This document shows, in pieces, positions 5,447 to 40,385 of a stretch of 64,000 nt of DNA (positions are counted from its first letter, which is position 1; each line of letters begins with the position of its first letter). The stretch lies in the NCBI GenBank assembly GCA_963768175.1, contig CAVYGQ010000001.1, forward strand, positions 318,305 through 382,304, written 5' to 3'. The notes under the pieces were generated by a model. It had not been told where the DNA came from and made no database searches. It saw only the letters and a program-made list of their open reading frames with translations. Source of the stretch: Candidatus Doudnabacteria bacterium. GTDB taxonomy: Bacteria > Patescibacteriota > Doudnabacteria > UBA920. The translations under genes and the position numbers were made by a program.

Positions 5447-5538
5447 TGTCATTCCCGCAGAAGCGGGAATCTTGTCAAAGTTATCCACTTGACAGATGTG
5501 TACATGTACGTTATTATGTACATAAGGAGAATAAACAT

Positions 5539-5910
5539 ATGAACGGTAAAACAACTTTATCTATTACGGACGCGAGAAAGAAGATTTTTGATATTGCGGA
5601 AGATGTCCAGCGGCCGGGTAAATATTATACTTTAACCGAACAGGGGAAGCCCAAAGCCGTTGTTATATCCGCGGATGAGTTTGAAAGTTGGCAGGAAACT
5701 CTGGAAATAATGGAACAATTTCCGGATTTGCCCAAAGATATTGCCCAAGTTGACAAAGACATAAAATCCGGGGCATATAAGAACTATATAACTTTGGAAG
5801 AGCTTTTAGCCAAAGAGGGTTATGTATTAAGCGAAAAAGCAAAGAATAAATATGCCGTATCAAATAAGGCTGGAAAAAAAGGCTCAAAAAGAGCTGGAAA
5901 AACTTCCTGA
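5539..5910 (+). CDS. Type II antitoxin, Phd/YefM family
   Basis: ORF trimmed to the internal Met preceded by an aaggaga RBS. N-terminal ...ITDARKKIFDIAEDV...KPKAVVISADEFESWQETLEI resembles Phd/YefM. It sits immediately upstream of, and overlapping, a RelE/ParE-like gene. Confidence 0.55.
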   Translation: MNGKTTLSITDARKKIFDIAEDVQRPGKYYTLTEQGKPKAVVISADEFESWQETLEIMEQFPDLPKDIAQVDKDIKSGAYKNYITLEELLAKEGYVLSEKAKNKYAVSNKAGKKGSKRAGKTS

Positions 5911-6200: not shown

Positions 6201-8564
6201 ATGTCAAAGAGAGACTTATCAGAACAAGATATCTGTTCCAAGTTTATCCTTCCCGCAGTAACGTCTGCGGGTTGGGATTTGCAAACCCAAATCCGAGAAC
6301 AATATTCGTTTACGGCAGGTCGTATTATTGTGCGAGGAAAAACTATAGCCAGAGGCAAAAGAAAGCGTGTAGATTTTCTTCTTTATTACAAATCAAATTT
6401 TCCAATTGCCGTTATAGAAGCAAAAGAAAATAATTATTCCGTGGGTGCGGGTATACAACAGGCTTTGGGATATGCGGAATCGCTCGATGTACCTTTTGTT
6501 TATAGTTCCAATGGTGATGGATTTTTGGAACACGACAGATTATCAACCAGTGGTCCAAAAGAACAAGAAATTTCTCTGAATAGTTTCCCTTCCCCCAACG
6601 AGCTTTATAAAAGACTAAAGGATTCAAATAAATTATCCCCACAGGCCGAAACTATATTACAGCAAGATTATTTTCAGGAGTTAGGCGGCAAAGAGCCTCG
6701 TTATTTCCAACAGGTTGCTATCAACCGCGCAGTTAAAGCCATTGTTAACGGCCAAAAACGTCTTTTGCTTGTGATGGCAACGGGTACGGGTAAAACTTAT
6801 ACCGCATTTCAAATAATTTGGAGACTGTGGAAGTCTAAATTCAAAAAACGCATTCTTTTTTTGGTTGACAGAAATATTCTTGCGGACCAAGCCATTATGA
6901 ATGATTTTAAACATTTTGGCGATAAAATGGTTAAAATCCAGGATCGTGCAGTAGATAAATCCTATGAAATTTACCTCGCTCTTTACCAGGGCATAACCGG
7001 CAAGGAAGAAGAAAAAAATATTTTTAAACAATTTTCACCAGATTTTTTTGACCTTATTATAGTAGACGAATGTCACCGGGGAAGCGCAAGAGAAAACGCG
7101 CTTTGGCATGATGTTTTGGATTACTATAAAAATGCCACTCAAATAGGATTAACCGCTACCCCAAAAGAAACCAAAGACATTTCCACGCAAACCTATTTCG
7201 GCGAGCCCATTTACACCTATTCTTTGCGCCAAGGCATAGATGACGGATTCCTTGCGCCATATAAAGTTGTTCGTGTAACAATAGACCGGGACGTAGAAGG
7301 CTACCGGCCAGAGCAAGGGAAAATTGACAAGCATGGCAACGAAGTCCCGGACAGAATTTATAACCTGAAAGATTTTGACCGCAACCTTGTTATCGACGAG
7401 CGTACCAAACTTGTTGCCCATAAAATAACAGAGTATTTAAAGGCAACTGACAGAATGCATAAAACCATTGTTTTTTGTGTTGATATAGACCACGCTGAAC
7501 GAATGCGTCAGGCTTTAGTTAACGAAAATCCAGACGAAGTAGCTAAAAATCGCAGGTATGTAGTTAGAATTACCGGCGAAAACCCGGAAGCCCCAATTGA
7601 ACTGGACCATTTTATAGATCCGGAAAGCCCATATCCGGTAATAGCAACCACCTCAAAACTTATGACTACAGGTGTAGACGCTCAAACCTGCAAAATTATT
7701 GCTTTGGACACAAATATACAATCCATGACAGAATTTAAGCAAATCATCGGCCGGGGAACACGCGTGCGGGAAGATTATGGAAAGCTTTTTTTTACGATTT
7801 TAGATTTTAGGGCGGCAACCGAACTTTTTGCTGACCCAAATTTTGACGGCGATCCCGTGGTAATTTACGAACCAAAAAAAGGCGAAAGCATTGTACCGCC
7901 AGAAGAAACGACGCCGGCTGAATTAAATAAAGAGCAGACTGAAGAAGCTGGAAATTTGGATTGGAATCCATTAACAGACGGCGGTCAAATTACGCAGGGA
8001 CCAGTTCAAAAATATTATGTCAATAGTGTTCCGGTTAAAGTTATTAACGAACGTGTACAATACATTGGTGGAGACGGAAAACTTATTACTGAATCATTAA
8101 CAGATTTTACCAAAAAAAGCATCTTGCAGGAATATCGTTCTTTAAATGAGTTTTTAACCGCCTGGTCCCACGCGGAGAAGAAAGAGGCTATAATTAAAGA
8201 ATTGGAAGATCATGGCGTGCTGTTTGAAGCTCTAAAGGAAGAATCGGGAAAAGATTTAGATCCATTTGACTTGGTTTGCCATATTGCTTTTGGTAAACCG
8301 CCGCTCACCCGAAAGGAACGCGCTGAAAATGTAAAAAAGCGTGATTATTTTACAAAATACGAGGGCAAGGCCAGGGAAATAATAGACGCGCTTTTAGAAA
8401 AGTATGCCGATCAGGGCATAACCGCGATTGATGACATTGGTGATTTGGGGGTTGAGCCTTTTTCGGAATTCGGAACGCCTTATGAAATTGTAAATGGTAT
8501 TTTTGGCGGGAGAACACAATATATTAAAGTTATTAATAAAATTCAGGAAGCATTATACGTATAA
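6201..8564 (+). CDS. hsdR: Type I restriction enzyme R subunit (HsdR)
   Basis: N-terminal restriction-endonuclease domain (VDFLLYY...IAVIEAKE), SF2 helicase motifs I (LLLVMATGTGKT) and II (DECHRG), and a typical HsdR C-terminus. Confidence 0.85.
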   Translation: MSKRDLSEQDICSKFILPAVTSAGWDLQTQIREQYSFTAGRIIVRGKTIARGKRKRVDFLLYYKSNFPIAVIEAKENNYSVGAGIQQALGYAESLDVPFVYSSNGDGFLEHDRLSTSGPKEQEISLNSFPSPNELYKRLKDSNKLSPQAETILQQDYFQELGGKEPRYFQQVAINRAVKAIVNGQKRLLLVMATGTGKTYTAFQIIWRLWKSKFKKRILFLVDRNILADQAIMNDFKHFGDKMVKIQDRAVDKSYEIYLALYQGITGKEEEKNIFKQFSPDFFDLIIVDECHRGSARENALWHDVLDYYKNATQIGLTATPKETKDISTQTYFGEPIYTYSLRQGIDDGFLAPYKVVRVTIDRDVEGYRPEQGKIDKHGNEVPDRIYNLKDFDRNLVIDERTKLVAHKITEYLKATDRMHKTIVFCVDIDHAERMRQALVNENPDEVAKNRRYVVRITGENPEAPIELDHFIDPESPYPVIATTSKLMTTGVDAQTCKIIALDTNIQSMTEFKQIIGRGTRVREDYGKLFFTILDFRAATELFADPNFDGDPVVIYEPKKGESIVPPEETTPAELNKEQTEEAGNLDWNPLTDGGQITQGPVQKYYVNSVPVKVINERVQYIGGDGKLITESLTDFTKKSILQEYRSLNEFLTAWSHAEKKEAIIKELEDHGVLFEALKEESGKDLDPFDLVCHIAFGKPPLTRKERAENVKKRDYFTKYEGKAREIIDALLEKYADQGITAIDDIGDLGVEPFSEFGTPYEIVNGIFGGRTQYIKVINKIQEALYV

Positions 8565-8567
8565 AAT

Positions 8568-9995
8568 ATGTCTATTCAAACTGCGGTAAAATCCATTCAA
8601 GATATAATGCGTAAAGATCAAGGCGTGGACGGCGACGCTCAGCGTCTTTCGCAATTGGTGTGGATGTTATTTTTAAAAATTATTGACGACCAGGAAACGC
8701 AGTTTGAACTTGAAAACCCCAAATATAAATCGCCAATCCCTAAAATTTTGCGCTGGCGCGGATGGGCAGCAGACGCAGAAGGCTCCACAGGAGAGGAATT
8801 GTTGGATTTTATAAATAACCATCTTTTTCCAGGACTGAAAAATCTCAAAGTCCAACCTAGTGACAAATTGGGTCAGTTAATTAAAGAGGTGTTTATTGAT
8901 TCAAATAATTACATGAAGTCTGGTACTTTGATTCGCCAGGTCGTAAATAAAATTAATGAGGTTGATTTTAACAAAAAGGACGACCGCCATCATTTTAACG
9001 AAATCTACGAACATCTTTTAAAAGAACTGCAAGGTGCCGGAAATTACGGGGAATTTTATACGCCGCGGCCTTTAACTCGCTTTGTTGTAGAAATGGTTAA
9101 TCCGCAATTAGGAGAAACCGTGCTTGATCCTGCTTGTGGTACCGGCGGATTTTTAGTTAATACTTTGGAATATGTTGGCCATAATCAGGTTAAAAACAGA
9201 AAAGATCAAAGGCTGCTTGAAAGCACTATTCATGGTATGGAGTTAAAGCAATTGCCTTTTACTTTAGCCATTACCAATTTAATTTTGCATGGCGTCCAAA
9301 TGCCCGACCAAATTATCCGCGGCGACGCGCTTTCCAAGCCGTTGCGCGAGTATGGCCCCAAAGACAGGGTAGATGTTATTGTGGCCAATCCTCCTTTTGG
9401 CGGTTCAGTTAAAGACGGTACGGAAGGTAATTTTCCGCTTGAATTTCGTACTAAAGAAACTGCGGATTTATTTTTAGTGCTGTTTATGCATTTACTTAAA
9501 CCCACCGGGCGGGCGGGGATTGTTCTGCCAGATGGCACGCTGTTTGGCGAAGGCGTAAAAACTAAAATTAAAGAAAAATTGCTAGAAGAGTTTAATTTGC
9601 ATACTATTGTGCGTTTACCGCAAGGTGTTTTTAGCCCGTATGCCGGAGTAAACACTAATCTTTTGTTTTTTGAAAAGGGAAACCCGACCAAAGAAATTTG
9701 GTATTATGAACTTCCTTTGCCAGAGGGTATGAAGCAATATACCAAAGGCCGGCCAATTAGAATAGAAGAATTTGACCCGGTAAAAAAATGGTGGAAAAAT
9801 CGTAAAACGAACGGAAATTCCTGGAAAGTTTCCATAAAAGAAATTAAGGATAGAAATTATAACCTGGACTTTAAAAACCCGGCGAAAAAAGAAGATTTAG
9901 CGCATAAAGATCCAAAAGAAATTTTGGGAAATATTTTAGACTTAGAAAACAAGATAATAGGGATTTTAGATACGGTAAAAAAGGAGATTAAGTAA
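8568..9995 (+). CDS. hsdM: Type I restriction-modification methyltransferase subunit (HsdM, N6-adenine)
   Basis: HsdM N-terminal domain, SAM motif LDPACGTGGFL, and catalytic IVANPPFG motif. Confidence 0.85.
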   Translation: MSIQTAVKSIQDIMRKDQGVDGDAQRLSQLVWMLFLKIIDDQETQFELENPKYKSPIPKILRWRGWAADAEGSTGEELLDFINNHLFPGLKNLKVQPSDKLGQLIKEVFIDSNNYMKSGTLIRQVVNKINEVDFNKKDDRHHFNEIYEHLLKELQGAGNYGEFYTPRPLTRFVVEMVNPQLGETVLDPACGTGGFLVNTLEYVGHNQVKNRKDQRLLESTIHGMELKQLPFTLAITNLILHGVQMPDQIIRGDALSKPLREYGPKDRVDVIVANPPFGGSVKDGTEGNFPLEFRTKETADLFLVLFMHLLKPTGRAGIVLPDGTLFGEGVKTKIKEKLLEEFNLHTIVRLPQGVFSPYAGVNTNLLFFEKGNPTKEIWYYELPLPEGMKQYTKGRPIRIEEFDPVKKWWKNRKTNGNSWKVSIKEIKDRNYNLDFKNPAKKEDLAHKDPKEILGNILDLENKIIGILDTVKKEIK

Positions 9996-9996
9996 A

Positions 9997-10239
9997 ATGA
10001 AAAAGAATTGGGATAAATACGACGGGAAGACAAAATATGACGAGGGTGGTCGTGTTTGGGATGGGGTTATTACTTTTGTTCTAAATTTTTTTGCTATTAT
10101 TTTTGTTTTTATTGGATGGATCTTAAAACTTATTTGGAAATTTGTTAAAGATGTTTTACATAGCATGTATGGAAAGGTAGTGGCACTTATTGCGAGTGGC
10201 GTTTTGATATATTTTTTATCTCATTTTTTTAGAAAATAA
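9997..10239 (+). CDS. Small two-TM membrane protein embedded in the R-M operon
   Basis: 80 aa with two hydrophobic helices, between hsdM and the Shedu-like gene. Function unknown. Confidence 0.35.
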   Translation: MKKNWDKYDGKTKYDEGGRVWDGVITFVLNFFAIIFVFIGWILKLIWKFVKDVLHSMYGKVVALIASGVLIYFLSHFFRK

Positions 10240-10254
10240 TTTGGGAATGTTTAT

Positions 10255-11439
10255 TTGATACAAATTATGAATTTTGATTGTAATAATTTCAGAATGATTA
10301 CTTATAACGGATTAAGCCTTTATTTCGATAAAGGTTGTCGTTTTCATGAATACTTTCACCATAGGTTAAAAACAAAAAAATTTCGTTATTACAGAAATGT
10401 TCTCCAATTTTTAGCGGAAAATGTAGAGGCAAGATTATATTTTACTTTGAATGAGGAAGTCAAAAATTTTCAAAAGGTTGAAGGAGGCTTTTTGGTAAAT
10501 ATGGGTTCATATCAAGAGTTTTGTCGTACTATCGGAAGCAAAACAGGTGGAAGGTTAAAAGCTTTTCTCGGACAAAATATTAATTTAAAAGACCTTGATA
10601 TCACTGATATTGAACGAGATAATTTTATTATTGTTCATGCAACTGAGAAAAATATTTTAGAAGCAATAAAAAATTTAAGTGCCGAGGTTCAAATAAATAT
10701 TTTAAACTTTCTAAAGAACTTACACCCTACGGACCAGGGTGGAATAATACCGCCCCAAGAAATAAGTGGCGCCAAACTGATCGAAGCATTGGGAAAGTTT
10801 TTAACAGATAAAAACGTACAGCAGGCTTTTTTTTCAAATTTAACGAAAGTCCAAATTGATATTCTAAAATCACATATTTTATTTTTGAAAAACAATCTAG
10901 ATAAAAATGAGACCTTCATTCAAGACTGGATAGACGAAGATGGTGGTAAATTTAGGAAGCAGCGATGTCTTATATTTGGCCTAGAATATGTGGACCCAAA
11001 GAGGGAAGGGCAAGTGGCGGGAAAATTTTTTGATATTCTAGCCGAACATGATTTAGAACATCATGTTATTTTTGAATTAAAGTCGCCTAAGGACGATACA
11101 TTTAAAGTGGTTGAAAATCAAACACAAGCTGGCGGTATTTCTACTGAATATTCCTTATCTCCACAACTAAGTAGGGCGATACCTGAGGTGCTGGGTTATA
11201 GAAAAATGTATGAAAACGCGCAAGGTGAAGAATTACAAAAATTTGGCGTAAACGTCAAGAAAAAGATTTCAAAATGTGTTATAGTGGTTGGCACACAAAA
11301 AGATGATCTGGTTTGGAAAGAAAATTTTGAGCGCCTTCAGAATAGTTTAAATGGAATCGAATTATTAACATATAACCATCTTATTGACAGACTGCAAAAT
11401 ACCGTAAAAAATTTGGAAGAAAACACTTCAACCCAATGA
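10255..11439 (+). CDS. Shedu-like (DUF4263-like) PD-(D/E)xK nuclease-fold protein embedded between hsdM and hsdS
   Basis: The C-terminal half reads ETFIQDWID...LIFGLEYVD...FDILAEHD...HVIFELKSP...QLSRAIPEVLGY. It has a D...ExK nuclease motif plus a downstream Gln, in an arrangement resembling the DUF4263 domain of Shedu SduA. Called from memory of the family, not from a database search. Confidence 0.4.
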   Translation: MIQIMNFDCNNFRMITYNGLSLYFDKGCRFHEYFHHRLKTKKFRYYRNVLQFLAENVEARLYFTLNEEVKNFQKVEGGFLVNMGSYQEFCRTIGSKTGGRLKAFLGQNINLKDLDITDIERDNFIIVHATEKNILEAIKNLSAEVQINILNFLKNLHPTDQGGIIPPQEISGAKLIEALGKFLTDKNVQQAFFSNLTKVQIDILKSHILFLKNNLDKNETFIQDWIDEDGGKFRKQRCLIFGLEYVDPKREGQVAGKFFDILAEHDLEHHVIFELKSPKDDTFKVVENQTQAGGISTEYSLSPQLSRAIPEVLGYRKMYENAQGEELQKFGVNVKKKISKCVIVVGTQKDDLVWKENFERLQNSLNGIELLTYNHLIDRLQNTVKNLEENTSTQ

Positions 11440-12599
11440 ACAATTGGCCAACAAAAAAATTAGGAGAAATTTGCTCAATAAAAAAAGGAAAAAAACCTGT
11501 ACTGCGAAAAATTGCGATTGCGGGTGATTTGCCATATTTAATTGCAAAATTTTTAAGAGGGACTAAGGAGCCAGAATACGCATCGGCAGACGATAAGGGT
11601 TCGGTAGTGGTACAAGAAAATGAAACAATCATAATTTGTGACGGTTCAAATTCCGGTGATATTTTTACGGGTTTTAAAGGAATATTATCTTCGACAATGG
11701 GTAAAATTAACCATGAAGATAACATTGACACCCAGTACCTTAAAATATTTTTGGTCTCAAATTTTGATTTGTTTAATGGAGCTAAAAAAGGTGCAGCAAT
11801 TCCGCATCTTGATATAAAAGCTTTATACAATCTTAGAATCCCGCTCCCGCCTATTGTAGAACAACAAAAAATTGTAAAAAAAATTGAGGAACTTTTTGGG
11901 GAAATAGATAAGGCGCAAAAATTGCGCGAAGAGGCGCAAAAAGACGCCGCCGCCCTTGTCCCCGCCGCTTTGCATCATATTTTTTCGCGGGGAAAGAAAA
12001 AGGGTTGGAGAGAAATATCATTAGGTGATAAAAAGTATATCAAGATGACAAGTGGGGGGACTCCATCAAGAGGAAATAGATCTTATTATGACGGAAGTAT
12101 TGCCTGGCTAAAGTCTGGCGAATTAAATGATAATCAGAATATTCTGGATTCTGAAGAGCATATTACAGAAGATGCTATAAAAAATTCTAGCGCCAAGGTT
12201 TTCCCGAAAAATACTGTACTATTTGCTATGTACGGTGCTACTGCAGGAAAAACAGGTATTTTGGTTAAAGAAGCAGCTACTAATCAAGCCGTAGCTGGTT
12301 TAATTTGTTCTGAAGAAAGTATTTACTATAGATATGTATTTCAGTGTCTGATGAATATCAGAAACGATGTCATAGCTCAAGCGTGGGGTGGAGCACAACC
12401 AAATTTAAGCCAGACAATCATAAAAAAATTCAAAATTCCACTTCCGTCTCTTCCCGAGCAAAAAAAGATCGTGGAATATTTGGATTCGCTTTCGGAAAAG
12501 ACGAGGAACTTACAGAAGTTGCAGGAGAAGACGGCAGGGGATTTTAAGGCTTTAAAACAATCCATTCTTCACAAAGCCTTCGCGGGAGAATTAATCTAA
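11436..12599 (+). CDS. hsdS: Type I restriction-modification specificity subunit (HsdS)
   Basis: Two target-recognition domains separated by conserved coiled-coil repeats (LPEQKKIVEYLD...). Overlaps the upstream gene by 4 nt. Confidence 0.8.
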   Translation: MNNWPTKKLGEICSIKKGKKPVLRKIAIAGDLPYLIAKFLRGTKEPEYASADDKGSVVVQENETIIICDGSNSGDIFTGFKGILSSTMGKINHEDNIDTQYLKIFLVSNFDLFNGAKKGAAIPHLDIKALYNLRIPLPPIVEQQKIVKKIEELFGEIDKAQKLREEAQKDAAALVPAALHHIFSRGKKKGWREISLGDKKYIKMTSGGTPSRGNRSYYDGSIAWLKSGELNDNQNILDSEEHITEDAIKNSSAKVFPKNTVLFAMYGATAGKTGILVKEAATNQAVAGLICSEESIYYRYVFQCLMNIRNDVIAQAWGGAQPNLSQTIIKKFKIPLPSLPEQKKIVEYLDSLSEKTRNLQKLQEKTAGDFKALKQSILHKAFAGELI

Positions 12600-12691
12600 A
12601 TTTGTAAGCCACAAAACTCATCCTTATAAACTCCAGTATTTAAGGATGATAATTCAAAAAATACTTTTATAAAAGTTAAATAAAATTCTTT

Positions 12692-13141: not shown

Positions 13142-13301
13142 ACAGAAGTCGGATAACATTTTAAATTCACGGGTATCCAACCAATAGGCAGGGGACAAAA
13201 GCAGGGGAAGAGGGTTTAACTTTCCATCTAGTAACATCATCCTTAAAAACTGGAGTTTATAAGGATGACTTTTGCCCAAAGTTTGATATTAAACTATATT
13301 T

Positions 13302-13688: not shown

Positions 13689-13816
13689 TCAGATTTGCAC
13701 GGGTATCCAACCAAAAAAGCAAGGGACAAAAGCAGGGGAAGAGGGTTTAACTTTCCCATCTGGTGACATCATCCTTAAAAACTGGAGTTTATAAGGATGT
13801 GGTGTATAATATAAAT

Positions 13817-14101
13817 ATGAAAAAATTAAAGACGGCAAAACAAATGGAGCGGCACCTTAAAGGGATGGCCAACCATTACCGCATCCAAATACTTCTTACT
13901 ATTGCGGGCAGCAAGGGAATAACCCTGGAAAACATTGTCAAAACCCTCCGCGCCAACGAAAAAACCATCGGCGAGCACACCCGGAGGCTGTACGTGGCCG
14001 GGTTGATAGACAAAAAATATCGCGGCAAATTTGTGGAGCATGCCCTTTCGCCATACGGAAAAATATTTGTCGATTTCCTAAAATCATTTCAATCCACATA
14101 A
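13817..14101 (+). CDS. Winged-helix (ArsR/SmtB-like) transcriptional regulator
   Basis: ORF trimmed to MKKLKTAK at 13817. HYRIQILLTIAGSKGITLENIV...LYVAGLIDKKYRGKF resembles ArsR-family HTH. Confidence 0.45.
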   Translation: MKKLKTAKQMERHLKGMANHYRIQILLTIAGSKGITLENIVKTLRANEKTIGEHTRRLYVAGLIDKKYRGKFVEHALSPYGKIFVDFLKSFQST

Positions 14102-14159
14102 CATCATCCTTACATACTTGAGAATATAAGGATGAGTATAACCTGATAAAATAAAGCAT

Positions 14160-14540
14160 ATGGCACAAAAGATAAATAAATTTATATATTGGACGCCAAG
14201 AATTCTGTCAATAATATTTATTCCCTTCTTGATGATATTTTCGCTGGATGTCTTCCAGCCGGGATTAAGCGCTTGGCAAATCGCAATTGGATTATTTATT
14301 CATAATATCCCGGCTTTAATCCTGCTGGCTGTTTTGGTGGTTTCTTGGAGGCACGAAATAGTTGGAGGGATTATTTTTATTCTCGCCGGCATCGCATATA
14401 TTGCATCTATGTTAGCGGCCGGCCGGCTTAAAGGGGGGATGTGGATATCTATTCCGATTATTGCCGGCCCTGCGTTCCTTATAGGAATTTTATTCATTGT
14501 TAATTGGCTAAAAAAGAGAAATAACCATACCGTTCTCTAA
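14160..14540 (+). CDS. Hypothetical membrane protein
   Basis: Four predicted TM helices. Confidence 0.45.
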   Translation: MAQKINKFIYWTPRILSIIFIPFLMIFSLDVFQPGLSAWQIAIGLFIHNIPALILLAVLVVSWRHEIVGGIIFILAGIAYIASMLAAGRLKGGMWISIPIIAGPAFLIGILFIVNWLKKRNNHTVL

Positions 14541-14599
14541 TTCGCTCCAGTTAAATAAAAAATTTAACGGGGTAAACGCGAATAGGAGAACAAAATTAC

Positions 14600-14959
14600 A
14601 TGAAAAAAATTGCGCGAAATAAACTAGGAAGACAAATGAAGCCGGGAAAGCCGAAATTTATGATAATTTATCGCTGCGGCAATTGCGGGCAGGAATTCGG
14701 CAGGACCGAACTGCATACGCCGGTTTGTTCATATTGCGGCTCAAAACAAGGATTCACGGTCATCAAAAAGCAGAAACTCACGCCCAAGGCCATTGCCGAG
14801 AGGCTAAAGGCAAGCACGGATAATATGATGAAGGCGCTAATCGGCGCTTACCAGGCCAGGCCAGAGGGAATTAACGAAAAAGAGCTGCTAAAGGTTATGC
14901 AAAAAGCCAAAGCTTTTGCCGGCAAAGTCCAAAGTCTAAAATTAAAAAAATCAAAATAA
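14600..14959 (+). CDS. Zinc-ribbon protein
   Basis: CGNCGQEF...CSYCGS double CxxC with a basic N-terminus. Preceded by a split copy of the ATTCGC..GCGAAT operator. Confidence 0.5.
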   Translation: MKKIARNKLGRQMKPGKPKFMIIYRCGNCGQEFGRTELHTPVCSYCGSKQGFTVIKKQKLTPKAIAERLKASTDNMMKALIGAYQARPEGINEKELLKVMQKAKAFAGKVQSLKLKKSK

Positions 14960-15005
14960 AATATCGTTCTCTAATTCGCGCGAATGGTAGAATAACTTAT
15001 TTTTT

Positions 15006-15458
15006 ATGAAAAAAGCTGAATTACAAAACGAAGTGGCGAGGATTCGGGCCTTAAGCCCGCAGGAATTCGTAAAAGACTATCAACTTTATGATGCCGAAAT
15101 TCCTGGGGAGAACCAACGAGCTGCCGAGCAAAGGAATAAAAAGTGGCAACTATACCTGGCCTCTGCCACAGACTTGCAGTTGTATTATTTAGCCAAATGT
15201 GAATTCAGAAAGCCCGAACATGGCGGAAAAAAGGACCGGCTGGAAGCCTTTCTGAGATTAAGACTGGGAAACCGCGAGGAGTTTGCCCGCGAGCTTGGAA
15301 TTAAGGCTTATAAAGACAGTGAAGCTTTAAAAGTTGATGTTCGGACATGGGCGGACCAAATCATCAAGGTGCAAAAAGAGGGAGAAGCCATAGCACAAAA
15401 CCCCGAAAAACGTTTGCGGGGACTTTATGAAAATCAAGATTTTGGCCACAGGGCATAA
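15006..15458 (+). CDS. Hypothetical protein
   Basis: 150-aa ORF preceded by the operator palindrome. Confidence 0.45.
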   Translation: MKKAELQNEVARIRALSPQEFVKDYQLYDAEIPGENQRAAEQRNKKWQLYLASATDLQLYYLAKCEFRKPEHGGKKDRLEAFLRLRLGNREEFARELGIKAYKDSEALKVDVRTWADQIIKVQKEGEAIAQNPEKRLRGLYENQDFGHRA

Positions 15459-15551
15459 CATCATCTTAACTTTAAGCTTTAGCATTACCCAAGCTAGTAA
15501 CTATTCGCGCGAATAGTTACCAACTTTAAATAGTAATATAATACATTTACG

Positions 15552-15812
15552 ATGAAAAATTTGGAAAAACAATATAAAGCTTTGGCAAACCGGCGCAGGC
15601 TGGCAATTTTAAAATATCTAAAATCGCACCAACAGGCTACGGTAGGGGATATTGCCAGGGAAATTAAGCTTAAGCTTAAGGCTACGTCCAAACACCTGCG
15701 CATACTCGCCGCCGCGGATTTTGTGGATTTTGAGCAAAAAAGCCTGAATGTATTTTACTTTTTACCGGCTAACAAGCCCGCGGTTTTAAAAAGCACTTTA
15801 CCATTTTTATAA
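15552..15812 (+). CDS. ArsR-family transcriptional regulator
   Basis: LANRRRLAILKYLKSHQQATVGDIAREI...TSKHLRIL is the canonical ArsR/SmtB HTH signature. A perfect 24-bp palindrome lies directly upstream. Confidence 0.65.
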   Translation: MKNLEKQYKALANRRRLAILKYLKSHQQATVGDIAREIKLKLKATSKHLRILAAADFVDFEQKSLNVFYFLPANKPAVLKSTLPFL

Positions 15813-15867
15813 AATAATTAAGTAACCATTCGCGCGAATGGTAGAATGATTTAATTCCTTAGAATTT

Positions 15868-16275
15868 ATGAAAAAAACATTATTTGCATTTGGCCTGGCC
15901 GGAACCTTGTTTTCCGGATACATGAGCGGCGTAAAATTTTTTAGCAAAATTTGCGCGTTTAACGAAACCTGCCCGTACTTTTTGGGCCATCCGGCCTGCT
16001 ATTACGGCTTTACCGTATTTTTAGTTATCGCGATACTTTCCGGTTTGCTGGTTTTTGGGAAAATCAGGGAAAAACAGGCGCTCAACGCCATATTGGCAGT
16101 TTCTTTGCTCGGGATTTTGTTTGCCGGACACTTTAGCGTTAGCGAACTGCCCCTGCTGCTTAAGAACGGTTTTTCGGCCTATGTGTTCGGCCTGCCGACT
16201 TGCATGCTCGGCTTGGTTTTTTACCTCGCCGTGTTTGCGTGTTCCTATTTGGCGCGCTTTGGCAAAAACGGATAA
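15868..16275 (+). CDS. Membrane protein with conserved Cys pairs (possible thiol-disulfide oxidoreductase, VKOR/DsbB-like)
   Basis: Four TM helices. C-x5-C in the first loop and an additional Cys near the TM boundaries. Family assignment is tentative. Confidence 0.35.
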   Translation: MKKTLFAFGLAGTLFSGYMSGVKFFSKICAFNETCPYFLGHPACYYGFTVFLVIAILSGLLVFGKIREKQALNAILAVSLLGILFAGHFSVSELPLLLKNGFSAYVFGLPTCMLGLVFYLAVFACSYLARFGKNG

Positions 16276-16309
16276 ATGTAAGAAGCCGCAATCAATTAAC
16301 TTTTTTGCT

Positions 16310-16738
16310 ATGTACCACCCATTCGAAGACAACAGGATAAAGGCGGAACGGGGACGGGATCCGGAACGGGACCTGGTAGAAAATTTATTTAACCAGCTGG
16401 CCGAAAAATACGGCAGGGGAGCGGTATTAAAATATATTGAAGACCATACCGAAGTAGCCCAGAATGTGGTTAAAAGATGGCTAAATAAAATGGAGCGTCC
16501 AAGCTCGGGCATTTGCAAGGCTATTTTGGCTTACTTGCAAAATTTCCAGCCCGGCGACCTCCCGGAGTTAAAAAAAATACTACGGCCGCCGTTAAAACCA
16601 AAACCAGCCGCCAAGTCGCCTGTTGCCGAAAAAAAACTTAGCCCCCAGGAGCAAAGAAGACAAGACACTATAAAAAGCAACGAGGAACAGTTAAACGCCC
16701 TGATGAAAAAGCTAAAGGACGAAGGCAAAATTTTATAA
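16310..16738 (+). CDS. Hypothetical protein
   Basis: ORF 16055.. overlaps the upstream gene, so it was trimmed to MYHPFED at 16310. Basic, Lys/Pro-rich C-terminus. Confidence 0.4.
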   Translation: MYHPFEDNRIKAERGRDPERDLVENLFNQLAEKYGRGAVLKYIEDHTEVAQNVVKRWLNKMERPSSGICKAILAYLQNFQPGDLPELKKILRPPLKPKPAAKSPVAEKKLSPQEQRRQDTIKSNEEQLNALMKKLKDEGKIL

Positions 16739-16844
16739 AAACCAAAAACCCTGGGCAAAACCCATCCTTATAAACTTGCCTACCCCGTAGTGAACCGTAG
16801 GTTCTGCTACGGGGAGAATGTAAGGATGATAAATTAGATTAGAT

Positions 16845-17240
16845 ATGAATACCTACAACTGCTATCAACAGCTCAAAAAACCCTCCTGGGCTCCGCCGAG
16901 CAGGCTATTTGGCCCGGTATGGTCAGGTTTGTACATTCTAATCGCTGTTTCTTTTGGCAAGGTATTTTTGCTGGCTTGGCAACATAATCTTGCCTTTATT
17001 GTGGCTTTGCCGTTTATATTAAATTTAATTTTTAATTTTGCTTTTACGCCCCTGCAGTTTGGGCTCAAAAATAATTTTTTGGCGGCCATAGACGTTCTGC
17101 TGGTTTTGGCCACCCTGATTTGGGCGATGGTTGCAATTTTCCCATACTTGGGCTGGACGGCCTACATCCAAATCCCATATCTGCTCTGGGTTTGCTTTGC
17201 CACAGTGCTACAACTCACCATTACTTATTTAAACTCCTAA
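16845..17240 (+). CDS. TspO/MBR-family (tryptophan-rich sensory protein-like) membrane protein
   Basis: LKKPSWAPPSRLFGPVWSGLYILIAV matches the conserved TspO N-terminal signature. Somewhat short at 131 aa. Confidence 0.55.
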   Translation: MNTYNCYQQLKKPSWAPPSRLFGPVWSGLYILIAVSFGKVFLLAWQHNLAFIVALPFILNLIFNFAFTPLQFGLKNNFLAAIDVLLVLATLIWAMVAIFPYLGWTAYIQIPYLLWVCFATVLQLTITYLNS

Positions 17241-17419
17241 CCCTTAAACAAACTGATAACCATTCGCGCGAATCCTCCTTCGCTAAAGCTTCGGAGGACG
17301 ATGTAAACGAACAGTCTAAAACCGGGCAAAAAGCCGGTTTTTTGATTGCTTTTAGTTTTAACGATTATTGACAAAAGCGCGAAAAAGCGTATGGTTAATG
17401 ATACGAAAAAGGAGGATAT

Positions 17420-30142: not shown

Positions 30143-30178
30143 TGAGGACAGTCCTCTGGACGTCCAGAGGACTGTCCT
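30143..30178. repeat. 36-bp perfect GC-rich palindrome (intergenic)
   Basis: gaggacagtcctctggac|gtccagaggactgtcctc: perfect 18+18 arms with nested sub-palindromes. Confidence 0.7.
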
Positions 30179-30327
30179 CGCTTGATGTTCACTAACACCA
30201 ATTATATCAAAAAAACTTCTTATTTAAAAGCCTTTTAAAACCGATTTTAGCCCTAACATAAGCCGGAAAAAAACTGAAACAATCTTTTGAACAATTACGT
30301 ATTAATTTATACAAGGAGCTAGTTGAT

Positions 30328-38679: not shown

Positions 38680-38855
38680 AGGGTTAAATAAACAGGCAAA
38701 AATCCGATGAACACAGAAAGTTTTTTACTATAATACAATTATGGACGTTAAAGATAAAGTTATAATTATTTCCGAAAAGCCCGAAGCCATGATGTAATCC
38801 TATAATCATCCTTACATTCTTAAGTATGTAAGGATGATGTCTAAAATTTAAAAAT

Positions 38856-40385
38856 ATGCCAAATCCTGTTTGCCTCATAATTCTTGACGGCTGGGGCTAT
38901 CGCGAAAATCCGGAAAACAACGCCATCGCGCAGGCCAAGACGGCCTTTTTTGACGCTCTGCTAAAAAAATATCCGCACACGCAGCTTTTCGCCAGCGAAG
39001 AACACGTGGGCCTACCCAAAGGACAAATCGGCAACAGCGAAATCGGCCATATGACCATGGGCACCGGCCAGGTTTTGGACGTGGATTTGGTAAAAATCAA
39101 CAAAGCGGCGCAAAAAGGCGAATTCCACACTAATCCCGCCTTTTTGCAACTTTTTGACCACGTCAAGCAATACAATTCCACTCTACATGTCGTAGGTATG
39201 GTAAGCCCTGGCGGAGTCCACAGCCATCAGGACCATTTGCACGAATTCCTAAAAGCCGCCAAAACTGCCGGCGTAGAAAAAGTCGCCATTCACGCCATTA
39301 CCGACGGGCGTGATTTGCCTCCGCAAAGCGGCGCCCAATACCTAAAAGACCTGGAAAAAGTTTTGGCCGATTTAAAAATCGGTTTTATCGCCACCGTACA
39401 CGGGCGTTTTTACGCGATGGACCGAGACAAAAACTGGGAACGCTTGGCAAAAACCGAAGCTGCTATTTTTGAAAGCAAAGGCAAGGTCGTGCGGGCAAAA
39501 AAACCGTCCGAAGTCCTAAATGAGCTTTACAAACAAGGGGTTGTGGACGAGCATGTTGAACCGATAGTATTTTTGGACGAAACCGGCAAAGGCTGGCCCA
39601 TTTCGCAAAACGACGGCGTGTTCTTTTTTAACTACCGGCCCGACCGCGCCAGGCAGCTGGCCAAAAAAATCCTGGAAAAAAAGCAGACCCACAACCTGTG
39701 TTTTGTCACGCTTACCGAGTACGACAAAACTTTTGAAACGCTGGTTGCTTTTCCGCAAAGCAAAATCGATACATCTTTGGCCGCGGAAATATCCAAAGCC
39801 GGCTTAAAACAGTCACACATCGCGGAAACGGAAAAATACGCGCACGTAACTTACTTTTTTAACGGCGGACACGAACAGCCTCATAAAAACGAACACTTCT
39901 TTTTAATAGACAGCCGGCGAGACGTACCGACCCACGATTTGGCGCCGGAAATGCGCGCGCACGAAATTGCGGACAAAACCGTGGAAAGAATAAAGGCCGG
40001 CGACAATTTTTTGGTTATTAACTTTGCCAACGCCGACATGGTCGGCCACACGGCTAACCAAAGCGCGATTATAACGGCCGTGGAAACCGTAGACAGGGAA
40101 CTAAAAAGGGTGGTTGAAGAAGTTACAAAACACGATGGAATAGCTATTGTTACCGCGGACCACGGCAACGCCGAAGTAAATATAGACGAAAAAACCGGCG
40201 AAAAGCATACCGCCCACACCACCAACTTAGTCCCATTTATCTTGGTCAGTAATGTCATTCCCGCGAAAGCGGGAATCTTGCGCCCATTGGGCACCCTCGC
40301 CGACATCGCTCCCACCATTTTGGAGCTGATGAATTTAAAAAAACCCGCCTCAATGACGGGAAAAAGTTTAATTGTGTTAAATTAA
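38856..40385 (+). CDS. gpmI: 2,3-bisphosphoglycerate-independent phosphoglycerate mutase
   Basis: Conserved CLIILDGWG, NSEIGHMTMGTG, DGRD, ADHGNAE and C-terminal ADIAPTIL blocks. Contains a 30-bp palindromic element in-frame near the C-terminus. Confidence 0.9.
   Translation: MPNPVCLIILDGWGYRENPENNAIAQAKTAFFDALLKKYPHTQLFASEEHVGLPKGQIGNSEIGHMTMGTGQVLDVDLVKINKAAQKGEFHTNPAFLQLFDHVKQYNSTLHVVGMVSPGGVHSHQDHLHEFLKAAKTAGVEKVAIHAITDGRDLPPQSGAQYLKDLEKVLADLKIGFIATVHGRFYAMDRDKNWERLAKTEAAIFESKGKVVRAKKPSEVLNELYKQGVVDEHVEPIVFLDETGKGWPISQNDGVFFFNYRPDRARQLAKKILEKKQTHNLCFVTLTEYDKTFETLVAFPQSKIDTSLAAEISKAGLKQSHIAETEKYAHVTYFFNGGHEQPHKNEHFFLIDSRRDVPTHDLAPEMRAHEIADKTVERIKAGDNFLVINFANADMVGHTANQSAIITAVETVDRELKRVVEEVTKHDGIAIVTADHGNAEVNIDEKTGEKHTAHTTNLVPFILVSNVIPAKAGILRPLGTLADIAPTILELMNLKKPASMTGKSLIVLN

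What the first reader, a model, noticed from the sequence alone, without database searches (positions are those of the whole stretch)
14534..17280. Repeated 26-bp palindromic operator TTCTNNNATTCGC-GCGAATNNNAGAA in front of five consecutive transcription units, two of them encoding ArsR-type regulators
Exact ATTCGCGCGAAT cores occur at 14967..14992, 15497..15520 (a perfect 24-bp palindrome gtaactattcgcgcgaatagttac), 15822..15846 and 17258..17273. Each lies 20-30 nt upstream of a start codon (15006, 15552, 15868) or just after a stop. A fifth copy at 14534..14590 has intact half-sites split by a 31-nt insert (ttctctaattcgc ... gcgaataggagaa) and overlaps the RBS of the zinc-ribbon gene. One copy sits directly upstream of the ArsR-family gene 15552..15812. 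This is the classic arrangement for autoregulation by a winged-helix dimer binding a 12-2-12 palindrome. The shared site implies a compact regulon: zinc-ribbon protein, 150-aa protein, ArsR, Cys-pair membrane protein, TspO-like protein. It may be metal- or redox-responsive, but its composition is not a described system.
Basis: partly seen in the sequence, partly recalled or inferred. Interest (0 to 1): 0.6.

Follow-up and report, generated by a model that had tools for sequence, protein, structure and literature searches.

The report
Conserved operator of a CPR regulator
The repeated palindrome is very probably the DNA site bound by a small ArsR-type regulator encoded next to it, a pairing kept across many lineages of the uncultivated Patescibacteria (CPR) and apparently not yet described.

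Summary
The sequence facts hold. ATTCGCGCGAAT occurs exactly four times within 2.3 kb, where none is expected by chance, and a fifth copy is split at its centre.

The reading as an autoregulatory operator of the ArsR-type gene 15552..15812 is strongly supported:
- In 80 orthologous loci from many Patescibacteria lineages, the palindrome lies 20-90 nt upstream of the regulator gene in 73 of 77 testable loci.
- It lies at or just after the stop codon in 54 of 79.
- Recognition-helix residues co-vary with operator bases.
- Paralogues within one genome carry different operator variants.

Three points need correcting:
- The second ArsR-like gene (13817) has its own palindrome, CATCCTTA-N14-TAAGGATG. 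This is equally conserved and also precedes the TspO gene.
- The 17262 copy precedes no gene.
- The protein has no Cys and no metal-site residues, so metal or redox sensing is unsupported.

Target genes are not conserved between genomes. An unbiased metagenome sample shows the site dispersed, directional and upstream of heterogeneous genes.

DNA binding and the sign of regulation are inferred, not shown. This is a new, phylum-wide member of a known kind of system.

The parts
14533..14590 (+). Split B copy. Left half TTCTCTAATTCGC is at 14533-14545 and contains the TAA stop of gene 14160..14540. A 32-nt hairpin insert is at 14546-14577. Right half GCGAATAGGAGAA is at 14578-14590.
   Evidence: The insert resembles repeat family C (ATTTAACGGGGTAAA, also at 56628-56642). 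As RNA the whole stretch folds at -23.8 kcal/mol, z = -6.2. Split B copies are rare: this is the only clear one in 1.54 Mb of window plus related loci.
14600..14959 (+). Zinc-ribbon protein gene, a target of the B site. The true start is probably ATG 14636 (107 aa), which has an AGGAAG Shine-Dalgarno sequence.
   Evidence: ORF. Only weak zinc-ribbon hits. The 45%-identical orthologue in L072 has an intact B site (TATTCTCTAATTCGCGCGAATGGTAGAAT) directly upstream. The gene call of 107 aa in the identical contig L001 is.
14967..14993 (+). B1 operator TTCTCTA-ATTCGCGCGAAT-GGTAGAA(T). Its right arm forms an extended -10 element, TGGTAGAAT (14985-14993), 12 nt before ATG 15006.
   Evidence: The same geometry occurs in orthologous arsR promoters (L027, L053, L069, L080). 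There is no significant RNA hairpin (z = -1.1).
15006..15458 (+). 150-aa protein gene with no family match, a target of B1.
   Evidence: A 30%-identical relative in L003 is preceded by a different operator variant with an ATTC-TGCA-GAAT centre.
15495..15522 (+). B2, the autoregulatory operator. It is a perfect palindrome, GTAACT-ATTCGCGCGAAT-AGTTAC. The -10 TATAAT lies at 15537-15542 (offset +22 from the core) and ATG 15552 follows 9 nt later.
   Evidence: The offset of about +22 from core to -10 and the near-leaderless start (here 9 nt from -10 to ATG) match the dominant class among orthologues. GGTAAC-type arms are specific to the closest relatives L002-L007.
15552..15812 (+). arsR-B: an 86-aa ArsR/SmtB-family winged-helix regulator with no Cys. 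It is the presumed binder of the B palindrome.
   Evidence: NF033788 scores 58.3 bits against a cut-off of 55. PF12840 scores 40.1 and PF01022 scores 35.9. AF2 model pLDDT is 91.9, with the recognition helix at residues 42-54. Best structural and sequence neighbours are HlyU, SmtB, CzrA and NolR. There are 379 homologues in the protein search and 420 tblastn-confirmed relatives among genome-contig stretches.
15822..15847 (+). B3 operator GTAACC-ATTCGCGCGAAT-GGTAGAAT, 10 nt after the arsR-B stop. Its right arm is an extended -10, TGGTAGAAT (15839-15847). It stands upstream of gene 15868.
   Evidence: A site at this position (0-90 nt after the stop) is present in 54 of 79 orthologous loci.
15868..16738 (+). 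Probable two-gene unit downstream of B3: a Cys-rich membrane protein (15868..16275, weak VKOR similarity) and a 142-aa protein (16310..16738). No palindrome lies between them.
   Evidence: PF07884 E = 3e-4, which is below the cut-off. The 35-nt intergenic gap without a site is read.
17255..17312 (+). B4, a disrupted copy after the TspO stop. GATAACC plus the core lies at 17255-17273. An inserted D-family repeat, CCTCCTTCGCTAAAGCTTCGGAGGACG, runs from 17274 to about 17300. A displaced arm, TAAACGAAC, lies at 17304-17312. An intrinsic terminator follows at 17319-17345 and no gene follows.
   Evidence: The same arrangement of core, insert and arm occurs in Doudnabacteria L002:7311-7365, where a 219-aa gene follows.
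13817..14101 (+). arsR-A: a 94-aa ArsR-like winged-helix protein, 28% identical to arsR-B. It is the presumed binder of palindrome A, not of B.
   Evidence: NF033788 scores 28.8 bits, below the cut-off. blastp against ArsR-B gives E = 9e-8. The family has 2008 homologues, the best 120 of them 76-100% identical and many with PF01022.
12618..12649 (+). A1: palindrome TCATCCTTA-N14-TAAGGATGA upstream of the Mrr-like gene 12692.
13237..13268 (+). A2: palindrome A upstream of the membrane-protein gene 13302.
13770..13799 (+). A3: palindrome A upstream of arsR-A. The -10 TATAAT lies at 13805-13810 and ATG 13817 follows 6 nt later (leaderless).
   Evidence: The same arrangement occurs in L202, L205, L209, L211 and L063.
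14104..14135 (+). A4: palindrome A starting 3 nt after the arsR-A stop, upstream of the DUF7670 gene 14160.
   Evidence: Downstream copies occur in all five independent ArsR-A contigs.
16763..16829 (+). Split A copy upstream of TspO (16845..17240). It reads CATCCTTATAAACTTG, then a 36-nt GC-rich hairpin (16779-16814), then AGAATGTAAGGATGA.
   Evidence: RNA fold is -33.6 kcal/mol, z = -6.8. A similarly split A copy follows the arsR-A orthologue in L063. The 67%-identical TspO orthologue in L174 is preceded by a related but different palindrome (ATTCTCACATTCTTGAGAAT, the TCAA/TTGA-centre type), not by a B site, and an intact A-type copy (ATCCTTACATTCTCAAGTTTATAAGGAT, L174:553) lies about 170 nt further upstream.
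38805..38838 (+). A5: a distant copy of palindrome A upstream of the phosphoglycerate mutase (iPGM) gene 38856..40385.

Best explanation
The palindrome is the operator of the 86-aa ArsR/SmtB-family winged-helix protein encoded at 15552..15812.

**Proposed mechanism**
- A homodimer, possibly two dimers on the full 26-28 bp element, binds the invariant core ATTCG-NN-CGAAT and the flanking arms.
- At its own promoter the site lies over the -35 region. The core ends 22 nt before the -10, so the centre is near -40 of a nearly leaderless transcript.
- At 15006 and 15868 the right arm itself forms an extended -10 element, TGGTAGAAT.
- Binding most likely represses by occluding the promoter or acting as a roadblock. 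The protein would then set its own level and that of the genes behind each copy.

**Wider picture**
- This regulator-operator pair is ancient and conserved across Parcubacteria and ABY1-type Patescibacteria. The target genes change from genome to genome.
- The neighbouring regulator 13817 is a paralogue (28% identity) with a private operator, CATCCTTA-N14-TAAGGATG. The window therefore holds two interleaved regulons rather than one.

**Shown:** sequence conservation, position, directionality, co-variation and protein fold.
**Inferred:** physical binding, stoichiometry, repression rather than activation, and the signal. No sensor residues are evident.
For: - **Chance excluded.** There are 4 exact cores against 0 in shuffles. 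In 80 orthologous loci (799 kb), ATTCGNNCGAAT occurs 197 times against 0.9 expected.
- **Phylogenetic footprint.** The site lies upstream of the orthologue in 73 of 77 loci, after its stop in 54 of 79, and at both positions in 50 of 76. In 26 loci the TAA stop lies inside the left arm. The loci come from MAGs named Doudna-, Lipton-, Portnoy-, Lloyd-, Kerfeld-, Uhr-, Harrison-, Nomura-, Zambryski- and Giovannonibacteria.
- **Specificity.**
  - Within one window or genome, each paralogue is flanked by its own palindrome type. This holds for window A3/A4 versus B2/B3 and for L063.
  - Two B-family paralogues in one MAG have different centres and arms: L041 versus L055, and L028 versus L045.
- **Co-variation.**
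  - Residue 44 lies in the first turn of the recognition helix. Ser rather than Ala goes with a TA, TG or CA centre instead of CG: 13/5 versus 6/50, Fisher p = 1.4e-6.
  - Residues 41-42 go with GGTAAC arms: 6/0 versus 1/67, p = 4e-8.
- **Promoter geometry.** The dominant class has the -10 at +22 from the core and the ATG 6-7 nt after the -10. A second class has the arm TGGTAGAAT acting as the -10. The window copies fit both classes.
- **Unbiased sample.** The metagenome scan returned 120 loci. Of 109 sites with adequate flanks, 85 are not next to arsR. An ORF starts within 130 nt on the predicted downstream side in 56 of 83 sites, against 15 of 83 on the opposite side.
- **Protein.** It has the ArsR/SmtB fold and scores above curated cut-offs.
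Against:
- The co-variation statistics are not corrected for phylogeny.
- Most non-autoregulatory sites (189 of 217) have no strong -10 at a fixed offset, so how binding affects their transcription is unclear.
- The centre near -40 at the regulator's own promoter is also the classic position of class II activators.
- Outer arms vary between sites within one genome while staying self-complementary (L003, L181). I attribute this to additional paralogues, but it could reflect selection for a hairpin.
- Two of the five window copies (split, and B4) are disrupted and may not be bound.
- The rest of the 949-kb source genome could not be scanned, so the regulon size in this organism is unknown.
Confidence: 0.8

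Rival explanations
1. The protein binds the same operator but acts as an activator rather than a repressor. It would act in class II fashion from about -40 at its own promoter, or by remodelling the spacer where the site lies between -35 and -10.
For: The core-to-(-10) distance at arsR promoters is fixed at about +22 or +2, and the 20-bp difference keeps the protein on the same helical face. The closest solved relative is HlyU, which its depositors call a transcriptional activator. Many promoters here are extended -10 or leaderless with no recognisable -35.
Against: Most characterised ArsR/SmtB proteins are repressors (established knowledge of the family). Target sites show no fixed offset to a -10 in 189 of 217 cases, whereas activators usually need strict spacing. 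In class 2 the site overlaps the -10 itself. The conserved spacing at the regulator's own promoter may simply be inherited.
Confidence: 0.2
2. The palindromes are structural elements such as REP-like repeats, transcript 3' hairpins or terminators. They would act as RNA or single-stranded DNA hairpins, and their association with arsR would be incidental.
For: Many copies sit at or over stop codons. B2, the A copies and the split copies fold well as RNA, with z from -3 to -7. When the left arm departs from consensus, the right arm is complementary in 30-70% of cases against 1-6% otherwise. In L211 the copy after arsR-A lies between convergent genes and is followed by TTTTT.
Against: B1 and B4 do not fold better than shuffles (z = -1.1 and -1.0). 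None of the folded window copies is followed by a U-run. The invariant part is a sequence (ATTCG..CGAAT), not a pairing. The commonest site has asymmetric arms (TTCTCTA versus AGGCGAA). Sites are directional towards a downstream start (56/83 versus 15/83). Operator bases co-vary with protein residues. No Rfam family matches.
Confidence: 0.07
3. The palindromes are recombination or mobility sites: cassette boundaries of an integron-like or Xer-like system, or a small mobile promoter-carrying palindrome. They would explain the array of unrelated small genes, and the ArsR protein would be a passenger or accessory factor.
For: The window array (12.6-17.3 kb) consists of ten small, unrelated, co-oriented genes nearly all separated by a palindrome. 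Its G+C is low (0.38-0.41) and it lies next to a restriction-modification and Shedu-like island. Genes flanking the operator-arsR-operator unit differ in almost every genome. Hairpin repeats are nested exactly at the dyad.
Against: No recombinase or integrase was found among the ORFs from 4.7 to 19.4 kb that were scanned against Pfam. At 26-32 bp the sites are far shorter than attC sites and lack their R''/L''-L'/R' layout (read from the sequence; family definition from memory). Paralogue-specific sites and residue-base co-variation are what a transcription factor predicts, not a shared recombinase. The site was absent from viral contigs. Spacing between the two flanking sites shows no constraint (292-407 bp).
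Confidence: 0.07

Closest known systems
ArsR/SmtB-family autoregulated repressors with imperfect 12-2-12 inverted-repeat operators (SmtB, CzrA, CadC, ArsR)
   Same: The fold is the same: alpha-alpha-alpha-alphaR-beta-beta-alpha winged helix. HMM scores exceed the cut-offs. A roughly 26-bp inverted repeat overlaps the regulator's own promoter, and the same site is reused in front of neighbouring genes.
   Different: There are no alpha3N or alpha5 metal ligands and no Cys. At 86 aa it lacks an N-terminal arm. The operator sequence is ATTCG-NN-CGAAT with outer ATTC/GAAT tetrads; from memory the SmtB/CzrA type is TGAA-N6-TTCA. A second copy sits at the gene's own stop codon. The regulon is dispersed and variable rather than a single efflux or detoxification operon.
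HlyU (Vibrio), the closest solved structure (3jth, 4k2e)
   Same: It is the best profile match (E ~ 1e-11) and the best Foldseek match, at 25-31% identity. It is also a small, non-metal-sensing member of the family.
   Different: From memory, HlyU carries a Cys pair used for redox sensing and acts by relieving silencing at virulence promoters. The protein here has no Cys, and nothing links it to silencing.
SdpR-type autorepressors and BigR/SqrR/NolR-type ArsR proteins
   Same: There are partial HMM similarities: NF033789 at 45.6 bits and NF040642 at 24.1 bits. NolR and BigR appear among the structural neighbours.
   Different: All scores are far below the curated cut-offs of 100 and 155 bits. 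The BigR/SqrR thiol pair is absent. The protein is not a member of these subfamilies.
Phylum-wide global regulators defined by comparative genomics, such as the LexA network of Patescibacteria (Sanchez-Osuna et al. 2017, cited in PMC7739468 ref. 52; text not available here)
   Same: A short palindromic box is conserved across the phylum upstream of the regulator's own gene and of a variable set of other genes. Recurrent targets here include DNA-repair genes: MPG, DinB, RarA, UvrC and several nucleases.
   Different: The protein family and the box are different. Housekeeping genes (PGK, ClpP, GluRS, Mur ligases) are also targets. No evidence links the system to DNA damage.
Integron attC sites and REP/BIME-type intergenic palindromes
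   Same: All are repeated palindromes between co-oriented, unrelated small genes, and some copies lie at gene 3' ends.
   Different: These sites are much shorter than attC and no integrase is nearby. They are directional towards gene starts, and their sequence core co-varies with a DNA-binding protein.

Membership tests
ArsR/SmtB family of transcription factors (protein 15552..15812) | Score above the curated family HMM cut-offs | tested here: met
   NF033788 scores 58.3 bits (cut-off 55). PF12840 scores 40.1 (cut-off 27). PF01022 scores 35.9 (cut-off 22).
ArsR/SmtB family of transcription factors (protein 15552..15812) | Winged helix-turn-helix fold with a C-terminal dimerisation helix | tested here: met
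   The AF2 model has pLDDT 91.9, with helices at 2-25, 31-38 and 42-54, strands at 59-63 and 66-70, and a helix at 77-85. The top Foldseek hits are HlyU, SmtB, CzrA, NolR and CadC. The dimer itself was not modelled.
ArsR/SmtB metalloregulators (functional subclass) | Metal-binding ligands at the alpha3N (Cys) or alpha5 (Asp/His/Glu) sites | tested here: not met
   The sequence has no Cys. It has two His: H26, not conserved, and H48, inside the recognition helix. The family consensus of 50 homologues has no Cys or His cluster.
Thiol-sensing ArsR proteins (BigR/SqrR/HlyU type) | Conserved Cys pair | tested here: not met
   No Cys is present in the protein or in the family consensus. NF040642 scores 24.1 bits against a cut-off of 155.
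ArsR/SmtB-type autoregulation | Inverted-repeat operator overlapping the regulator's own promoter | tested here: met
   B2 lies at 15495-15522, its end 14 nt (the perfect 24-mer 16 nt) before the -10 TATAAT at 15537-15542. The arrangement is conserved in 73 of 77 orthologous loci. This is a sequence-level test only.
ArsR/SmtB-type autoregulation | Specific DNA binding, and release on a signal | not testable with these tools
   Only indirect support is available: co-variation between residues and operator bases and paralogue-specific operators.
ArsR/SmtB family (protein 13817..14101) | Score above the curated family HMM cut-offs | tested here: inconclusive
   The window protein scores 28.8 bits on NF033788, below the cut-off of 55, and has no Pfam hit at E <= 0.01. 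Many homologues at 76-86% identity carry a precomputed PF01022 hit. blastp against ArsR-B gives E = 9e-8.
SdpR autorepressor subfamily | NF033789 score above its cut-off | tested here: not met
   The score is 45.6 bits against a cut-off of 100.
Integron gene-cassette array | Integrase nearby, and attC sites of about 57-141 bp with R''-L''/L'-R' boxes | tested here: not met
   The ORFs from 4.7 to 19.4 kb that were scanned encode RadC, Phd, HsdR/M/S, a Shedu-like protein, the array genes and an ECF sigma factor, with no recombinase. The sites are 26-32 bp simple palindromes. The attC definition is taken from memory.
REP-like repeat or intrinsic terminator | Stable hairpin (plus U-run for terminators) at gene 3' ends, irrespective of the downstream gene's orientation | tested here: not met
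   B1 and B4 fold no better than shuffles, and no window copy has a U-run. ORF starts are found on the predicted downstream side in 56 of 83 sites against 15 of 83 on the opposite side.

The most novel reading that the evidence does not exclude
The 26-30 bp elements could be portable promoter-operator modules, rather than ordinary operators of an ordinary repressor.

- Patescibacteria hold a radiation of tiny, sensor-less ArsR-like regulators: at least the A, B and TCAA/TGCA-centre types.
- Each regulator gene is bracketed on both sides by its private palindrome.
- These palindromes often carry their own extended -10 element.
- They would be copied in front of newly acquired or reshuffled genes, wiring variable accessory genes and some repair and housekeeping genes into a few phylum-wide circuits.
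- Other hairpin repeats are nested exactly at the dyads (B_split, A_split, L063). That would then reflect cruciform- or hairpin-targeted insertion, and hence a DNA-structure-based mobility of these sites.
Probability: 0.15. Interest if true: 0.75.

Novelty: new member of a known kind. Interest (0 to 1): 0.55.

Why it matters
Patescibacteria (CPR) have very small genomes, few transcription factors and almost no experimentally characterised regulation.

This analysis gives two concrete regulator-operator pairs, each with a defined consensus:
- (T)TCTCTAATTCGCGCGAAT(A/G)G(G/T)(C/A)GAATA
- AACATCCTTA-N14-TAAGGATGTT

Both pairs are conserved across many candidate phyla. That makes regulon prediction possible in MAGs from sequence alone.

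It also gives directly testable reagents. The proteins are 86-94 aa, the sites are 28 bp, and one specificity residue (position 44) is predicted.

The results further show that the regulator and its site are ancient while the controlled genes turn over. This bears on how reduced, episymbiotic bacteria organise gene control.

If binding fails, what remains is a striking repeat family that would need another explanation.

Tried and rejected
- **Rfam.** A scan of the whole window at gathering threshold found only four tRNAs.
- **Viral contigs.** No match to TCTCTAATTCGCGCGAAT.
- **Conserved regulon content.**
  - blastp clustering of genes downstream of sites gave almost only singletons.
  - A Pfam scan of 111 candidate targets showed no dominant function.
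  - The most recurrent target, a roughly 600-aa CxxC-rich protein, has no family match.
- **DNA-damage (SOS-like) regulon.**
  - Repair genes recur among targets: MPG, DinB, RarA, UvrC, GIY-YIG, PD-(D/E)XK and EEP nucleases.
  - Housekeeping genes recur too, and a LexA network has already been published for Patescibacteria (reference seen; paper not readable).
  - I kept this only as a remark.
- **Hairpin selection on the arms.**
  - Overall complementarity is barely above the independent expectation.
  - The strong conditional co-variation is better explained by lineage- and paralogue-specific operator variants.
- **Split copies as a regular variant of the B site.** Only the window copy was found in 1.54 Mb.
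- **DNA looping between the two sites flanking arsR.** Spacings range from 292 to 407 bp with no helical phasing (Rayleigh p = 0.06-0.35).
- **Fixed operator-to-(-10) spacing at target genes.** It is not seen in 189 of 217 sites.
- **Strain variation.** The only other contig carrying the exact protein (L001, Logan ERR10755942) is 100% identical over 3208 bp and so uninformative.
- **Literature.** Searches for the motif, and for Patescibacteria or CPR with ArsR, palindrome, regulon or inverted repeat, found nothing relevant.

Full report

The exact 12-mer ATTCGCGCGAAT occurs at 14974, 15503, 15828 and 17262. No shuffle of the window gave a single match. Allowing two mismatches adds only two chance-level hits far away.

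- TTCTCTA|core|GGTAGAA at 14967-14992.
- The perfect 24-mer at 15497-15520.
- GTAACC|core|GGTAGAAT at 15822-15847.

The split copy consists of TTCTCTAATTCGC (14533-14545) and GCGAATAGGAGAA (14578-14590), separated by 32 nt. Its left arm contains the TAA stop of the preceding gene.

Gene 15552..15812 is a bona fide ArsR/SmtB-family protein. NF033788 scores 58.3 bits against a cut-off of 55, and PF12840 and PF01022 are above their cut-offs.

Two details of the title do not hold.
- The second ArsR-like gene (13817) is not associated with this palindrome.
- The 17262 copy is not in front of a gene. It follows the TspO stop, is interrupted by another repeat, and is followed by a terminator.

**2. 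A second palindrome family in the same array**

CATCCTTA-N14-TAAGGATG occurs at 12619, 13238, 13770, 14105 and 38807, where none is expected by chance. A copy split by a 36-nt GC-rich hairpin lies at 16763-16829.

This family (A) brackets the other ArsR-like gene (13817..14101). It also precedes:
- the Mrr-like gene,
- a membrane-protein gene,
- the DUF7670 gene,
- TspO (the split copy),
- and, 22 kb away, the phosphoglycerate mutase gene.

The array from 12.6 to 17.3 kb therefore holds two interleaved sets of sites, each with its own small regulator. It lies downstream of a type I restriction-modification system and has low G+C.

**3. Organism and relatives**

Homologues of the 86-aa protein are named Parcubacteria, Doudnabacteria, Liptonbacteria and similar. 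The source contig is 949 kb.

A profile scan of one genome per species confirmed 420 relatives by tblastn among 489 matched stretches. The best 80 loci (52-76% identity) were fetched.

**4. Phylogenetic footprint**

In these loci ATTCGNNCGAAT occurs 197 times in 799 kb, against 0.9 expected.
- It lies 20-90 nt upstream of the orthologue in 73 of 77 testable loci.
- It lies within 90 nt after the stop in 54 of 79.
- It lies at both places in 50 of 76.
- In 26 loci the last base of the TAA stop is the first A of the core, so the C-terminal Leu-Leu-stop is encoded by the left arm CTTCTCTAA.

The consensus is tTCTCTAATTCGCGCGAATagG(c/t)(g/a)GAATA. It is an imperfect 26-28 bp palindrome with an asymmetric right arm. 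The conserved unit is operator, arsR, operator.

**5. What is regulated?**

Genes behind the second site and behind further nearby sites are almost never the same.

Of 109 sites with at least 500 nt of flank, only 24 adjoin an arsR homologue.

I oriented the sites with a matrix trained on the arsR-linked sites. An ORF of at least 70 aa starts within 130 nt on the predicted downstream side in 56 of 83 sites, against 15 of 83 on the other side.

Targets are heterogeneous.
- Recurrent: a roughly 600-aa CxxC-rich protein without family match (9 sites in 7 loci), GIY-YIG proteins, Mur ligases, methylpurine glycosylase, RarA, DinB, UvrC, and PD-(D/E)XK and EEP nucleases.
- Also present: PGK, ClpP, GluRS, a topoisomerase and ArgRS.

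Among the window's targets, the zinc-ribbon protein has a 45%-identical orthologue with an intact B site (L072). The 67%-identical TspO orthologue in L174 is preceded by a related palindrome of the TCAA/TTGA-centre type (see section 7), not by a B site. An intact A-type copy lies about 170 nt further upstream in that locus.

**6. Evidence that this protein reads this site**

Binding cannot be tested here, but three lines of evidence point the same way.

- *Each paralogue has its own site.*
  - In the window and in L063, the A-type protein is flanked by A sites and the B-type protein by B sites.
  - Two B-family paralogues in one MAG have different centres and arms: L041 has GTAC with GGTC arms, L055 has GCGC with GGCGCAT arms, and L028 and L045 differ likewise.
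- *Residues co-vary with bases.*
  - Residue 44 of K-(A/S)-TSKHL is Ser in 13 of 18 proteins whose own operator has a TA, TG or CA centre, but in only 6 of 56 with other centres (Fisher p = 1.4e-6).
  - Residues 41-42 differ from the usual Ser-x in all six proteins (window included) whose own operator has GGTAAC arms (p = 4e-8).
  - The AF2 model (pLDDT 91.9) places residues 42-54 in the recognition helix.
  - These statistics are not corrected for phylogeny.
- *The fold is right.* The protein has the ArsR/SmtB fold and is closest to HlyU, SmtB, CzrA and NolR.

**7. The second regulator**

ArsR-A belongs to a larger and much more conserved family. It has 2008 homologues at E <= 1e-5, and the best 120 are all 76-100% identical across Sung-, Lipton-, Uhrbacteria and Paceibacterota.

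In five independent contigs the palindrome AACATCCTTA-N14-TAAGGATGTT appears twice. In four of them (not L207) it ends about 5 nt before the -10 of the gene, and in all five it appears again right after the stop. The neighbours are completely different in each contig.

More distant paralogues (54-64% identity) are flanked by a third type, ACATTC-N4-ATTC-TCAA-GAAT-N4-GAATGT. A TGCA-centred variant also exists.

All types share one frame: outer tetrad, 4 nt, inner tetrad, 4-nt centre, then the mirror image.

**8. Promoter geometry and mechanism**

At arsR-B promoters the dominant class has a -10, often TGnTATAAT, starting 22 nt after the core. The ATG follows 6-7 nt after the -10.
- These transcripts are therefore leaderless or nearly so.
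- The palindrome centre lies near -40 and covers the -35 region.

In a second class the right arm TGGTAGAAT is itself an extended -10, with the ATG 6-9 nt later.

In the window:
- B2 (the regulator's own promoter) belongs to the first class: TATAAT at 15537-15542, ATG at 15552.
- B1 and B3 belong to the second: TAGAAT at 14988-14993 and at 15842-15847.

At other targets no fixed offset to a -10 is seen. Flexible placement, overlap with promoter elements and family precedent favour repression by occlusion or roadblock. Activation from -40 is the main mechanistic alternative.

No sensor is evident. The protein and its family consensus lack Cys and the alpha3N and alpha5 ligands. The suggested metal or redox response therefore has no support.

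**9. Rival readings**

*Hairpin, REP or terminator.*
- For: some copies fold well and many sit on stop codons.
- Against:
  - B1 and B4 do not fold better than shuffles.
  - No window copy has a U-run.
  - The conserved part is a sequence, not a pairing.
  - The commonest site is asymmetric.
  - Sites are directional.

*Recombination sites or a mobile cassette.*
- For: the array-like layout and the variable neighbours.
- Against:
  - No recombinase is nearby.
  - The sites are unlike attC.
  - Paralogue-specific variation points to transcription factors.

I cannot exclude that the short element, which can carry its own -10, spreads as a module. This is the novel case.

**10. Disrupted copies**

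The 32-nt insert of the split B copy resembles another repeat family of the window, CCCCGTTAAAT...ATTTAACGGGG at 38117 and 56583.

B4 has a different repeat, CC(G/T)CCTTCGCTAAAGCT..., inserted between the core and the right arm. The same arrangement is seen in Doudnabacteria L002, where a gene follows.

The split A copy has a counterpart in L063. Split B copies are otherwise rare.

Whether these copies are still bound is open. As duplex DNA their half-sites are too far apart for one dimer.

**11. Novelty and verdict**

No paper in the held library contains the motif or describes an ArsR-type palindromic regulon in Patescibacteria. A LexA network of this phylum has been published, but it concerns another protein.

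The finding is a real, statistically solid operator system of a known kind: an autoregulated ArsR/SmtB winged-helix protein with an inverted-repeat operator. It is new in four respects:
- its sequence;
- its phylum-wide conservation;
- its paralogue-specific variants;
- its habit of bracketing the regulator gene.

Confidence that the palindrome is the binding site of the adjacent regulator is about 0.8. Confidence that it represses is about 0.6-0.65 overall. Interest is 0.55.

Noticed in passing
window 12618-12649, 13237-13268, 13770-13799, 14104-14135, 16763-16829 (split), 38805-38838: A second palindrome family, CATCCTTA-N14-TAAGGATG, brackets the other ArsR-like gene (13817). It is conserved on both sides of that gene's orthologues in five unrelated Patescibacteria contigs.
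   Followed up: yes
window 13817-14101; proteins P0124-P0243: The 94-aa ArsR-A protein is unusually conserved. The best 120 database homologues are 76-100% identical across several candidate phyla, which suggests a core regulator of Parcubacteria-type genomes.
   Followed up: partly
L125:2066 and 2408, L085:408 and 738, L003:2568, L202:3153, L008:625, L045:2759: Third and fourth operator flavours share the same frame: ACATTC-N4-ATTC-TCAA-GAAT-N4-GAATGT, and a TGCA-centred variant. The first flanks more distant paralogues of ArsR-A.
   Followed up: partly
window 38117-38172, 56583-56638, 14546-14577: Repeat family C, CCCCGTTAAAT...ATTTAACGGGG, carries variable inner hairpins. One copy lies at the 5' end of the M23 peptidase ORF (56548). 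A minimal copy forms the insert of the split B site.
   Followed up: partly
window 17274-17300, 56072-56089, 56374-56400, 38063-38090; L002:7324-7353: Repeat family D is CC(G/T)CCTTCGCTAAA(A)GCT(T/A)CGG.GGA. One copy displaces the right arm of B4. The same insertion occurs at the equivalent site in a Doudnabacteria MAG.
   Followed up: partly
window 29347-29376 and 62347-62380; 30144-30179; 45016-45054; 46047-46084; 54702-54753: There are further long perfect or near-perfect palindromes. They include a twin-hairpin motif, TCCGCC.G.GGCGGATCCGCCTT.GGCGGA, present twice. The genome is rich in palindromic intergenic elements.
   Followed up: no
window 6201-12599: A type I restriction-modification locus (hsdR 6201, hsdM 8568, hsdS 11436) has a Shedu-like gene (SduA_C domain, 10255-11439) inserted between hsdM and hsdS. 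RadC and a Phd-type antitoxin lie upstream (4784-5910).
   Followed up: no
window 13805-13819, 14145-14162, 15537-15554, 38842-38858; many loci: Start codons lie 6-9 nt after good -10 boxes and have no Shine-Dalgarno sequence. Leaderless transcription therefore seems common for these genes in Patescibacteria.
   Followed up: partly
L028:6309-8174, L008:8287, L011:3912 and others (cluster 2): A roughly 600-aa protein with N- and C-terminal CxxC clusters and no Pfam family is the most recurrent non-regulator target of the B site (9 sites in 7 loci).
   Followed up: partly
L124:1990-5815; also L006, L059, L077, L078: Some relatives carry dense arrays of B sites, for example 11 in 6.9 kb in L124, in front of small genes. 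This resembles the window array.
   Followed up: no
window 17290-17306: A GGAGGA Shine-Dalgarno-like sequence is followed 2 nt later by ATG-TAA, a start-stop mini-ORF, inside or just after the D repeat following B4. It is not conserved in L002.
   Followed up: no
L167:1-381 with arsR-B downstream; L065:9018-9811; window 16845-17240: TspO genes lie next to ArsR-A or ArsR-B type regulators in three loci (the window, L167, L065). This hints at a recurrent TspO-regulator association.
   Followed up: no
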